A stretch of 64,000 nt of DNA. It comes from Escherichia coli. GTDB taxonomy: Bacteria > Pseudomonadota > Gammaproteobacteria > Enterobacterales > Enterobacteriaceae. Shown piece after piece: positions 62,278 through 62,445 of the stretch (its first letter is position 1; the number at the start of each line of letters is the position of its first letter). The stretch lies in assembly GCF_044647545.1 (NCBI RefSeq), contig NZ_CP172818.1; one strand, 5' to 3'. A program made the position numbers and the translations under genes. The notes under the pieces are model-generated. The model worked only from the letters and a program-made list of their open reading frames with translations, had not been told where the DNA came from and ran no database searches.

Positions 62278-62445
62278 ATGATCATGCTGATTCTCCGCCT
62301 CTGGTGGGCGGCGGTGCTTTTGCTGGCGTATGGTGCCGCTCATTTATCCCCCGGGGGTTTTGTTCCCGGGGCGTTGTGCCTGTTCTGGTCGTTGCTGGTG
62401 GCGCGAATCTGTTCGACACAGTCGTCTGTCGGCGGAGGTAAATAG
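62278..62445 (+). CDS. ymfR: small hydrophobic protein (55 codons)
   Basis: ATG 62278 to TAG 62443-62445: [55 protein letters not shown]; below ORF-track cutoff; gene name from memory. Confidence 0.5.

What the first reader, a model, noticed from the sequence alone, without database searches (positions are those of the whole stretch)
62278..62445. Unannotated-size small hydrophobic ORF between the terminase remnant and the portal fragment
A 55-codon ORF with ATG start encodes a largely hydrophobic peptide and falls below the ORF-track cutoff. Its stop TAG overlaps the GTG of the portal fragment (taGTG). It could be a small membrane protein or simply a remnant reading frame.
Basis: seen in the sequence. 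Interest (0 to 1): 0.3.

Follow-up and report, generated by a model that had tools for sequence, protein, structure and literature searches.

The report
Damaged copy of prophage gene ymfR
The small hydrophobic reading frame is real, but it is a scrambled copy of ymfR, an already named e14 prophage gene for a tiny two-helix membrane protein that intact phages keep between their DNA-packaging and portal genes, so it is ordinary.

Summary
The ORF is there as described: ATG at 62278, 55 codons, TAG at 62443-62445 sharing its G with the GTG of the portal fragment. A 55-codon ORF is not unusual here; homology is what makes it a gene.

It is the e14 prophage gene ymfR (K-12 b1150, 60 aa, PHROG phrog_502 "membrane protein"). 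The family is broad: 347 clusters at 50% identity, mostly 50-70 aa, predicted as a two-helix hairpin with a G..YGAW.IYPPAGF..G core. In all four phages and five of the seven metagenomic contigs checked, it lies between the large terminase (PF03354) and an HK97-type portal (PF04860); the flanking genes of the other two contigs had no domain record. Its stop usually overlaps the portal start, and the portal's ribosome-binding site lies in its last codons. dN/dS is 0.14-0.45.

The window's copy is aberrant. Five indel clusters (-15 nt) make it a mosaic of the three ancestral frames. It loses G14, W23 and the YPP turn, and its phrog_502 score drops from 98 to 22 bits. This allele occurs in one assembly only, and the adjoining portal fragment has five private one-base homopolymer indels. 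Assembly error and real local decay are about equally likely.

The family's function is untested. My best guess is a late-expressed membrane helper of portal or prohead assembly. Novelty: already known. Interest: low.

The parts
60899..62266 (+). ymfN (oweE/aaaE)-type fusion ORF of 455 aa: an HTH_36 N-terminus fused to the C-terminal part of the large terminase (end of the ATPase domain plus the nuclease domain). This is the 'terminase remnant'.
   Evidence: Pfam PF13730, PF03354 (profile positions 118-174 only) and PF20441. RefSeq annotates the K-12 counterpart as a partial terminase large subunit.
62269..62273 (+). GAGGT Shine-Dalgarno-like motif, 4 nt upstream of the ATG of the small ORF and 2 nt after the terminase TAA (62264-62266).
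   Evidence: Read from the sequence. It is identical in K-12, SfI, ST64B and phiP27.
62278..62445 (+). The finding: a 55-codon allele of ymfR (small two-helix membrane protein family, phrog_502). It is a mosaic of ancestral frame 1 (MIMLIL), frame 2 (RLWWA), frame 1 (LLLAYGA), frame 3 (A-HLSPGGF), frame 1 ([13 protein letters not shown]), a scrambled stretch (ICS), then frame 1 (TQSSVGGGK).
62295..62416 (.). Five private indel clusters inside the ORF relative to all relatives (-1, -5, -2, -4 and -3 nt; total -15 nt), plus the private substitution W43L (62393 G>T).
   Evidence: Alignments and indel lists.
62434..62438 (+). GGAGG ribosome-binding site for the portal gene, embedded in the last Gly-Gly codons of the small ORF.
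   Evidence: SD-like purine-rich motifs sit at the same place in eight of the nine other loci examined.
62445..62849 (+). beeE-type portal N-terminal fragment. It starts at a GTG that overlaps the TAG. In this window its frame is broken after 68 codons (stop at 62649-62651) by private one-base indels at about 62631, 62676, 62694, 62770 (deletions) and 62817 (insertion).
   Evidence: The K-12 counterpart matches PF04860 at E = 5e-22.
62842..63633 (+). jayE-type baseplate J fragment joined to the portal fragment by the old e14 deletion. It marks the right edge of the dead head module.
   Evidence: PF04865 at E = 1e-47. RefSeq annotation of relatives.

Best explanation
The ORF is the e14 prophage copy of ymfR. 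YmfR belongs to a widespread phage family (PHROG phrog_502) of roughly 50-70-residue inner-membrane proteins.

Shown here:
- The family is predicted to form two helices joined by a tight 'YPP' turn.
- Its core is conserved (G14, G21, W23, G30 and G35 in K-12 numbering).
- It evolves under purifying selection.
- It is wedged between the large terminase and an HK97-type portal in cos/HNH head modules. Its start abuts or overlaps the terminase stop. Its stop usually overlaps the portal start, and its Gly/Glu-rich last codons carry the portal's Shine-Dalgarno sequence.

Inferred:
- It is made late, in step with terminase and portal, by translational coupling.
- It sits N-in/C-in in the inner membrane, because the C-tail is positively charged.
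- It most likely helps portal or prohead assembly at the membrane, a role like that of T4 gp40 for the gp20 portal. I put this specific role at about 0.25.
- Part of the reason for its fixed position is that its translation delivers ribosomes to the portal start.

In this window the head module is dead: the terminase is truncated and fused, and the portal is cut to a fragment. In K-12 the gene is dispensable and is transcribed only when the SOS response de-represses e14.

The copy written in this window is also corrupted. Five indel clusters make it a three-frame mosaic that lacks G14, W23 and the YPP turn. As written, it is best read as a non-functional relic peptide. It may still be hydrophobic enough to enter the membrane if translated. 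Whether the corruption is biological or a consensus error in the source assembly is unresolved; I put it at roughly 50:50.
For: Identity:
- The region is collinear with K-12 e14 (ymfK, ymfT, ymfL, ymfM, ymfN, ymfR, portal fragment, baseplate J fragment, ymfQ) at 98.4% identity over 24 kb.
- RefSeq labels the homologous ORF 'ymfR: protein YmfR'.
- K-12 YmfR matches phrog_502 at E = 2.5e-28. The window allele matches at E = 1.6e-4 and matches the family profile at hhalign probability 94%.

Family and coding constraint:
- There are 347 representatives at 50% identity and 866 clusters at 90% identity, all named hypothetical, prophage or membrane protein.
- The conserved columns are listed.
- dN/dS is 0.14 (K-12 vs Klebsiella phage) and ranges up to 0.45.
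- AlphaFold2 predicts helix 2-25, a turn, and helix 29-56, with mean pLDDT 74.

Synteny and coupling:
- The order terminase, small ORF, portal holds in SfI, ST64B, phiP27 and a Klebsiella phage.
- Of the seven metagenomic or Logan loci, three show both Pfam-confirmed flanks (L008/L009, L011, L098), two show only the portal (L012, L099), one only the terminase (L100), and one has no domain record for either flanking gene (L010).
- Stop/start overlaps (TAGTG, TAATG, TGATG) and SD-like motifs in the last codons are shown.
- In 64 of 80 IMG/VR loci the overlapping GTG opens an intact 413-aa portal.

Expression and dispensability in K-12:
- The ymfR transcript rises by log2 4.5 together with the rest of e14 under an SOS-inducing drug (PMC10012262).
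- Replacing ymfR gives no phenotype (PMC9145139).

Corruption of this copy.

Against: - No experiment on any family member was found, so the proposed role in head assembly rests only on gene position, coupling and analogy.
- The conserved part of the protein is the membrane hairpin and its periplasm-facing turn, not the cytoplasmic tail that could touch the portal. This fits a membrane or host target at least as well.
- The window allele keeps its start, its stop, both ribosome-binding sites and two hydrophobic segments, so translation and membrane insertion cannot be excluded.
- If the indels are assembly errors, the strain has a normal 60-codon ymfR, and 'corrupted' describes the record rather than the organism.
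Confidence: 0.85

Rival explanations
1. The indel patch (62295-62817) is a consensus or assembly error. The strain really carries the canonical 60-codon ymfR and an unbroken beeE fragment, and the 55-codon ORF exists only in the record.
For: - The allele is a singleton. It occurs in one 4,499,902-bp contig (WP_400165227.1) among about 15 billion proteins.
- No complete E. coli genome exceeds 95.5% identity over 62100-62700, and all 22 sampled full-length relatives (95.5-91.9% identity) span exactly 619 nt against 601 nt here.
- In the portal fragment there are 0 private substitutions but 5 private one-base indels at short base repeats (CCC>CC, CC>C, AA>A, GGGG>GGG, AA>AAA). The flanks show 31 private substitutions and 0 private indels. 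This is the reverse of the usual substitution-to-indel ratio.
- Eighteen of the 19 private indel columns are deletions.
- Other database entries show similar 'compensated frameshift' variants of this GC-rich ORF (P0002, P0003, P0039).
Against: - The rest of the window shows no private frameshifts. Core sequence 36800-37700 is 100% identical to many genomes, and indels against K-12 elsewhere are mostly intergenic, compensated or in-frame.
- No reason for a purely local error is visible.
- Two hairpins inside the ORF changed on both arms while keeping complementarity. Random base-calling error would not be expected to do this.
- The right arm of this e14 is an otherwise unsampled lineage (best match 96.6%), so being a singleton is not surprising in itself.
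Confidence: 0.5
2. The 55-residue peptide is a functional variant small membrane protein, for example one that is toxic or protective when e14 is SOS-induced, kept open by compensating frameshifts.
For: - The start, the stop, both ribosome-binding sites and two hydrophobic segments are retained.
- The indel clusters pair up to multiples of three (-1/-5, -2/-4, -3).
Against: - All three + frames are free of stop codons across the ORF, so staying open needs only a net length divisible by three, which has about a 1 in 3 chance.
- The allele loses the invariant G14, the near-invariant W23 and the YPP turn.
- Its phrog_502 score falls from 98 to 22 bits.
- No second occurrence of the allele exists.
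- The neighbouring portal fragment carries five private frameshifts.
- Even the intact K-12 gene is dispensable.
Confidence: 0.07
3. The region is not protein-coding. It is an RNA or DNA structural element, such as a terminator or attenuator between terminase and portal, and the ORF is incidental.
For: - The SfII annotators marked a putative rho-independent terminator at nt 9-58 of the homologous ORF.
- The consensus scan finds 5 terminator-like hairpins in 61800-62900, three of them on the + strand inside the ORF, against 0.9 expected.
- Two hairpins keep complementarity in the window allele.
Against: - Conservation is at the amino-acid level across 347 clusters, with dN/dS of 0.14-0.45.
- The hairpins are absent from the Klebsiella homologue.
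- Folding energies are not exceptional (z = -0.9 to -1.4).
- There is no Rfam match.
Confidence: 0.03
4. It is a chance ORF in GC-rich spacer DNA.
For: ORFs of this length are common in the window: 286 observed against about 234 in shuffles. The region is 59% GC.
Against: There is clear homology to a conserved, syntenic gene family.
Confidence: 0.01

Closest known systems
E. coli K-12 YmfR (b1150; UniProt YMFR_ECOLI; WP_000605606.1), e14 prophage
   Same: It is the same locus in the same defective prophage, with the same flanking remnants. The first 6 residues, the last 9 residues, both ribosome-binding sites and the TAGTG overlap are identical.
   Different: The K-12 protein has 60 aa and the window allele has 55 aa. 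Five indel clusters put three internal stretches out of frame or scramble them. Identity is 67%, and the phrog_502 score is 22 bits against 98 bits.
PHROG phrog_502 'membrane protein' (for example ST64B Sb3, phiP27 L37, SfII_03, SfI gp03)
   Same: Homologous family. These members have the same length class, a two-helix hairpin, a position between the large terminase and the portal, and a stop overlapping the portal start.
   Different: Those copies sit in intact, working head modules and keep the G..YGAW.IYPPAGF..G core. The window copy sits in a dead module and has lost part of that core. PHROG files the family under 'moron / host takeover', which its tightly coupled position in the late head operon does not support.
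Bacteriophage T4 gp40 (membrane-associated chaperone of the gp20 portal initiator)
   Same: This is a functional analogy only: a phage-encoded factor that lets the portal start prohead assembly at the inner membrane (PMC9958956). It is the model for my proposed mechanism.
   Different: No sequence or structural relationship was tested or claimed. T4 has a different head-gene layout, and no experiment links the YmfR family to the portal.
Lambda gpW (head-tail joining protein), encoded between terminase A and portal B
   Same: A small gene in the same position. Several phage records label the YmfR homologue 'head-tail joining protein W'.
   Different: YmfR gave no Pfam hit of any kind, so none to a gpW family. 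From general knowledge, gpW is a soluble virion-completion protein, whereas YmfR is a hydrophobic two-helix protein. The label is a positional mis-annotation.
Class II holins/pinholins and the HK97 gp15 superinfection-exclusion moron
   Same: Small phage inner-membrane proteins with two transmembrane helices and a charged C-tail.
   Different: In the loci examined, the lysis genes (holin, lysozyme) lie elsewhere, upstream of HNH and the small terminase. Unlike a moron, the gene leaves no room for its own promoter or terminator. There is no PADLOC hit.

Membership tests
YmfR / phrog_502 small membrane protein | Significant match to the family profile | tested here: met
   The window allele matches phrog_502 at E = 1.6e-4 (22 bits, residues 13-46). 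It matches the A4 family profile at hhalign probability 94%, E = 1.4e-7. K-12 YmfR scores 98 bits. The match is met but much weakened.
YmfR / phrog_502 small membrane protein | Length of about 50-70 aa with two hydrophobic helices joined by a short turn | tested here: met
   The allele has 55 aa, with hydrophobic stretches at about 1-21 (interrupted by R7) and 27-45. The AlphaFold2 model of the family reference has helices 2-25 and 29-56.
YmfR / phrog_502 small membrane protein | Conserved core: invariant G14 and G35, near-invariant G21, W23 and G30, and the 'YPP' turn | tested here: not met
   G21, G30 and G35 are kept. G14 and W23 are lost, and 'WLIYPPAG' is replaced by 'AHLSPGG' through out-of-frame reading. 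This does not argue against homology, which is shown at the DNA level. It argues against the copy being an intact functional member.
YmfR / phrog_502 small membrane protein | Position between the large terminase (PF03354/PF20441) and an HK97-type portal (PF04860) | tested here: met
   The upstream ORF carries the TerL ATPase tail and nuclease domain, and the downstream fragment is the portal N-terminus. The order terminase, small ORF, portal is annotated in 4 phages. Among the 7 further loci, both flanks are Pfam-confirmed in 3, one flank in 3, and neither in 1.
YmfR / phrog_502 small membrane protein | Stop codon overlapping or abutting the portal start, with the portal SD inside the last codons | tested here: met
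   TAGTG lies at 62443-62447 and GGAGG at 62434-62438. The same arrangement occurs in most of the homologous loci examined.
Lambda gpW head-tail joining protein | Sequence match to a gpW family | tested here: not met
   Pfam gives no gpW hit for either the K-12 or the window peptide, only chance-level membrane families at E > 0.03.
Holin (class II / pinholin) | Gene located in the lysis cassette next to the endolysin | tested here: not met
   In L008, L011 and L098 the holin or lysozyme genes lie upstream of HNH and the small terminase, separate from this ORF. There is no holin Pfam hit.
Moron (autonomously expressed prophage accessory gene) | Own promoter and terminator, set apart from the flanking late genes | tested here: not met
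   The start abuts or overlaps the terminase stop and the stop overlaps the portal start. The scan found no + strand promoter-like site in 61800-62900.
Known anti-phage defence proteins (PADLOC) | Match to a PADLOC model | tested here: not met
   There were 0 families at E <= 1.
T4 gp40-like portal membrane chaperone (functional class) | Required for membrane-associated portal or prohead initiation; physical contact with the portal | not testable with these tools
   This is an analogy only. It needs genetics, localisation or interaction assays.

The most novel reading that the evidence does not exclude
The YmfR/phrog_502 family is an overlooked, near-universal part of cos/HNH HK97-type head modules. 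It would be a translationally coupled inner-membrane protein that recruits or chaperones the portal (or the terminase-portal complex) at the membrane, so that membrane-initiated prohead assembly, so far documented for T4 gp20/gp40, is common among HK97-like phages. It is often left unannotated (SfV, SfIV, PY54) or mislabelled as lambda W.
Probability: 0.2. Interest if true: 0.55.

Novelty: already known. Interest (0 to 1): 0.14.

Why it matters
For this window it matters little. The ORF is a known, dispensable gene of a defective prophage, and this copy is damaged or mis-assembled.

Two by-products may be useful:

- **An uncharacterised phage gene family.** The family has no known function, yet it holds one of the most fixed positions in HK97-type head operons and is translationally coupled to the portal. 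A single knockout in SfI, SfII, ST64B or phiP27 would show whether membrane-assisted portal assembly extends beyond T4.
- **A caution for small-ORF discovery.** The region is GC-rich and open in all three frames, so frameshifted or mis-assembled versions still look like intact small proteins and enter databases as new 'hypothetical proteins'. WP_400165227.1 here is one example, and P0002, P0003 and P0039 look like others.

Tried and rejected
- **Domain and family searches.** Pfam and NCBIfam gave only chance-level hits. PADLOC gave none.
- **RNA and structure searches.** Rfam gave nothing over 61500-63000. A PDB sequence search with the family profile gave nothing meaningful. Foldseek against BFVD returned only uncharacterised helical hairpins with E >= 0.09.
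- **Tracing the source contig.** The look-up of encoding contigs for the exact window allele (P0001) found no record, so the source contig and its reads could not be examined.
- **Locus retrieval.** The search for related loci with the diverse alignment A4 failed because no conserved 7-10-column stretch exists. With A3 it returned only proteins about 100% identical, so the 13:1 synonymous-to-nonsynonymous count there is biased by selection of the best hits and I do not rely on it.
- **Close-relative dN/dS.** Values among close enteric alleles were uninformative because there are too few changes. I used more distant pairs instead.
- **Hairpin or terminator idea.** Folding z-scores were not significant, and the hairpins are absent from the Klebsiella homologue.
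- **Close core-genome relatives.** ST648-type genomes match the core at 99.8% and 100% over one 900-nt core segment, but the ST648 genome inspected lacks e14, so it cannot arbitrate the allele.
- **Fusion search.** A search for fusions of the small protein to portal or terminase found none among the best 120 hits.
- **Literature.** 'b1150' returned only unrelated papers. The 2004 e14 analysis (Mehta, Casjens and Krishnaswamy) is not held. No paper on ST64B sb3 function was found. No ribosome-profiling paper mentioning e14 small proteins was found.

Full report
**1. The observation.**
The sequence shows an ATG at 62278-62280, with a second in-frame ATG at 62284. There are 55 sense codons and a TAG at 62443-62445. 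The last base of that TAG is the first base of a GTG at 62445-62447, which opens the next ORF. A GAGGT motif at 62269-62273 precedes the ATG by 4 nt. A GGAGG at 62434-62438 precedes the GTG by 6 nt.

The peptide is [55 protein letters not shown]. It is hydrophobic (GRAVY 1.18), with two hydrophobic stretches.

The upstream 455-codon ORF (60899-62266) carries an HTH_36 domain fused to the end of a TerL ATPase domain and a TerL nuclease domain. The K-12 counterpart of the downstream fragment matches Phage_portal, and the next ORF is a Baseplate_J fragment.

The ORF is not remarkable by length. The window has 286 ORFs of at least 55 aa, against 234 +/- 11 in locally shuffled sequence. All three forward frames are stop-free between 62291 and 62439.

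**2. What it is.**
The last 24 kb of the window is collinear with the E. coli K-12 icd-e14 region at 98.4% identity. The gene order is potABC, pepT, phoQP, purB, icd, then e14 (ymfD, ymfE, lit, intE, xisE, ymfH-J, ymfK, ymfT, ymfL, ymfM, the terminase remnant, ymfR, the portal fragment, the baseplate J fragment, ymfQ).

RefSeq annotates the homologous ORF as 'ymfR: protein YmfR' in K-12 (183 nt, 60 aa, WP_000605606.1). A match to the region is found in 1,560 of 5,426 complete E. coli genomes.

K-12 YmfR reads [60 protein letters not shown]. It matches PHROG phrog_502 ('membrane protein') at E = 2.5e-28. There is no match in Pfam, NCBIfam, PADLOC, Rfam or the PDB.

**3. The family.**
A profile search of 1.84 billion representatives found 347 clusters at 50% identity. 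A second search found 866 clusters at 90% identity. The best 120 of those are 52-86 aa long and are named only 'hypothetical', 'prophage' or 'membrane' protein. Their hosts run from Escherichia, Salmonella, Klebsiella, Yersinia and Serratia to Gilliamella, Salinicola and marine samples.

An alignment of 40 diverse members has invariant G14 and G35 and near-invariant G21, W23 and G30. Its consensus is ..LIGL.GA.L.SYGAWLIYPPAGFIV.G.LCL.WS...AR, followed by a variable polar tail.

With that alignment, AlphaFold2 predicts helix 2-25, a three-residue turn at YPP, and helix 29-56 (mean pLDDT 74). The positive charges sit in the C-tail, so I infer an N-in/C-in hairpin.

dN/dS is 0.14 for K-12 against a Klebsiella phage, and 0.24-0.45 for more distant pairs with saturating dS. 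The family is therefore a real protein-coding gene.

**4. Genomic context of the family.**
In phages SfI, ST64B, phiP27 and Klebsiella ST101-KPC2phi6.3 the gene lies between the large terminase and the portal, in a module ordered TerS, TerL, X, portal, protease, capsid.

Seven further loci from Logan, ENA/TARA and JGI contigs, chosen for sequence diversity, are consistent with this position. Where the flanks are long enough, the layout reads HNH, Terminase_4, TerL (PF03354/PF20441), X, Phage_portal (PF04860), an S49 or S78 protease, and Phage_capsid. Both flanks are Pfam-confirmed in L008/L009, L011 and L098. Only the portal is confirmed in L012 and L099, and only the terminase in L100. In L010 the two flanking genes have no domain record.

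The start abuts or overlaps the terminase stop. In most of the 13 homologous loci examined the stop overlaps the portal start by one base (TAGTG, TAATG or TGATG). The exceptions are a 4-nt overlap, a 14-nt overlap and a 2-nt gap.

Where I printed the junction sequence (nine loci other than the window), eight carry a purine-rich SD-like motif (GGAGG, GGGGAGGG, GAGGGG and similar) in the last five or six codons. That would explain the Gly/Glu-rich C-terminus. L012, whose portal start lies further upstream, does not.

In 64 of 80 IMG/VR loci encoding YmfR, the overlapping GTG opens an intact 413-aa portal. The SfI portal read from that GTG matches PF04860 end to end.

The gene is thus an integral, translationally coupled part of the late head operon. 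It is not a self-contained moron, and the lysis genes lie elsewhere.

Some records leave it unannotated (SfIV, PY54) or call it 'head-tail joining protein W' by position. SfV, whose portal region is unrelated at the DNA level, still has an unannotated 53-codon hydrophobic ORF in the same slot, and it matches the family profile at 89% probability.

**5. The copy in this window is abnormal.**
Against K-12, HS-01 and BS-01, the window ORF has five indel clusters of -1, -5, -2, -4 and -3 nt, 15 nt in all.

Translating the three frames shows the peptide is a mosaic:
- MIMLIL comes from ancestral frame 1.
- RLWWA comes from frame 2.
- LLLAYGA comes from frame 1.
- A(H)LSPGGF comes from frame 3.
- [13 protein letters not shown] comes from frame 1, with a private W43L change.
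- ICS is a scrambled stretch.
- TQSSVGGGK comes from frame 1.

The copy loses G14, W23 and the YPP turn. Its phrog_502 score drops from 98 to 22 bits.

The adjoining portal fragment has five private one-base indels at short base repeats (CCC>CC, CC>C, AA>A, GGGG>GGG, AA>AAA). These cut its ORF to 68 codons.

All 19 private indel columns in 60900-64000 fall within 62295-62817. The 31 private substitutions outside the ORF are spread over the flanks, and none lies in the portal fragment.

The allele is a singleton. It occurs only as WP_400165227.1 (53 aa, from the second ATG) on one 4,499,902-bp E. coli contig. No complete genome exceeds 95.5% identity over this segment. All 22 full-length relatives sampled across 95.5-91.9% identity span 619 nt, against 601 nt here.

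**6. Artefact or real decay?**
Four points favour an assembly or consensus error:
- The allele is a singleton.
- The substitution-to-indel ratio in the portal fragment is inverted.
- The indels fall in short base repeats and are biased towards deletion.
- Similar 'compensated frameshift' variants of this ORF exist in other assemblies (P0002, P0003, P0039).

Four points favour real mutation:
- The rest of the window is clean. Core sequence is 100% identical to many genomes, and indels against K-12 elsewhere are mostly intergenic, compensated or in-frame.
- The right arm of this e14 is an otherwise unsampled lineage (best match 96.6%).
- A natural mosaic patch exists at ymfH.
- Two hairpins inside the ORF changed on both arms while keeping complementarity. 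CGCC(N7)GGCG became CCGCC(N7)GGCGG, and CCCCGGC(N13)GCCGGGG became CCCCGGG(N9)CCCGGGG. This looks like hairpin-templated mutation rather than random base-calling error.

Survival of the ORF is not evidence of selection, because all three frames are open there. I cannot decide between the two with these tools and put it at about 50:50. Either way, the 55-aa peptide as written is not an intact family member.

**7. How it most likely works.**
- **Shown:** the family is a conserved two-helix membrane hairpin, encoded between terminase and portal and coupled to both.
- **From the literature:** in K-12 the transcript is induced together with the rest of e14 by an SOS-inducing drug (log2 fold change 4.5, PMC10012262). 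e14 genes come on late in the SOS response under a CI-like repressor (PMC11002266). Replacing ymfR has no phenotype (PMC9145139). The ASKA clone was treated as an uncharacterised membrane protein in a transporter screen (PMC10299036).
- **Inferred:** in intact phages the protein is made late and in step with the portal. It most likely assists portal or prohead assembly at the inner membrane, as T4 gp40 does for gp20 (PMC9958956). Part of its positional constraint comes from delivering ribosomes to the portal start. I rate the specific gp40-like role at about 0.25.
- **Alternatives:** exclusion of superinfecting DNA, modulation of lysis timing, or coupling only.
- **Caveat:** the most conserved part is the membrane hairpin and its periplasmic turn, which fits a membrane or host partner as well as a portal partner.
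- **In this window:** the head module is dead, so the gene is a relic whatever its ancestral role.

**8. Comparison and verdict.**
The finding is the known gene ymfR (phrog_502) in a corrupted or mis-assembled allele. It is not a lambda W homologue, a holin in a lysis cassette, a moron with its own signals, or a known defence protein; each of these was tested and not met. Novelty is 'already known' and interest is low. The most novel reading that remains open concerns the family's untested role in head assembly.

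Noticed in passing
window 57800-58070 (ymfH region of e14, ORFs on the - strand): A patch of about 270 nt carries roughly 33 substitutions and two 1-nt insertions (57957, 58010) against K-12, flanked by stretches 100% identical to K-12. 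Other E. coli genomes carry alleles closer to it (best 97.1%), so it looks like a natural mosaic or recombination patch.
   Followed up: partly
L096 (phage SfV, NC_003444.1) 2289-2450: An unannotated 53-codon hydrophobic ORF lies between the large terminase (ATGA overlap) and the portal. It matches the YmfR family profile (hhalign probability 89%, E = 2e-6). The annotated SfV portal start (GTG 2392) lies inside it and may be placed too far upstream. The homologue is also unannotated in SfIV and Yersinia phage PY54.
   Followed up: partly
window 62330-62881 (+): A 183-codon ATG ORF exists only because of the private frameshifts. It starts in an alternative frame of ymfR and then threads through successive frames of the portal fragment. 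It is not a gene.
   Followed up: yes
window 62295-62311 and 62347-62369: Two short hairpins inside ymfR differ from all relatives on both arms while keeping perfect complementarity (CCGCC/GGCGG and CCCCGGG/CCCGGGG). The hairpins are absent from the Klebsiella homologue. This may be a signature of template-switch mutation.
   Followed up: partly
phage records ON470603.1, ON470584.1, ON470580.1 and PQ793804.1: The YmfR homologue is labelled 'head-tail joining protein W', apparently by position between terminase and portal. YmfR gave no Pfam hit, so none to a gpW family.
   Followed up: partly
L002 and L094 (E. coli HS-01 and BS-01; NZ_CP172817.1 and NZ_CP172816.1): These are the closest relatives of the window's e14 right arm. 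They carry a truncated e14 joined directly to an icd gene flagged 'frameshifted; incomplete', and BS-01 also carries several other frameshifted e14 tail and recombinase genes. Either the decay is unusual or the assemblies have problems in this region.
   Followed up: no
proteins P0074, P0077, P0085 and P0098: A few family hits are 102-122 aa long and match the profile in two stretches, which suggests tandemly duplicated (four-helix) versions of the hairpin.
   Followed up: no
window 53155-60900 compared with 60900-64000: This e14 is a mosaic. Parts of the left arm (about 54000-57000 and 59000-60000) are identical to K-12. The right arm is 1-4% diverged and has no close match in 5,426 complete genomes. 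The core genome around it is ST648-like, and the ST648 strain inspected lacks e14.
   Followed up: partly
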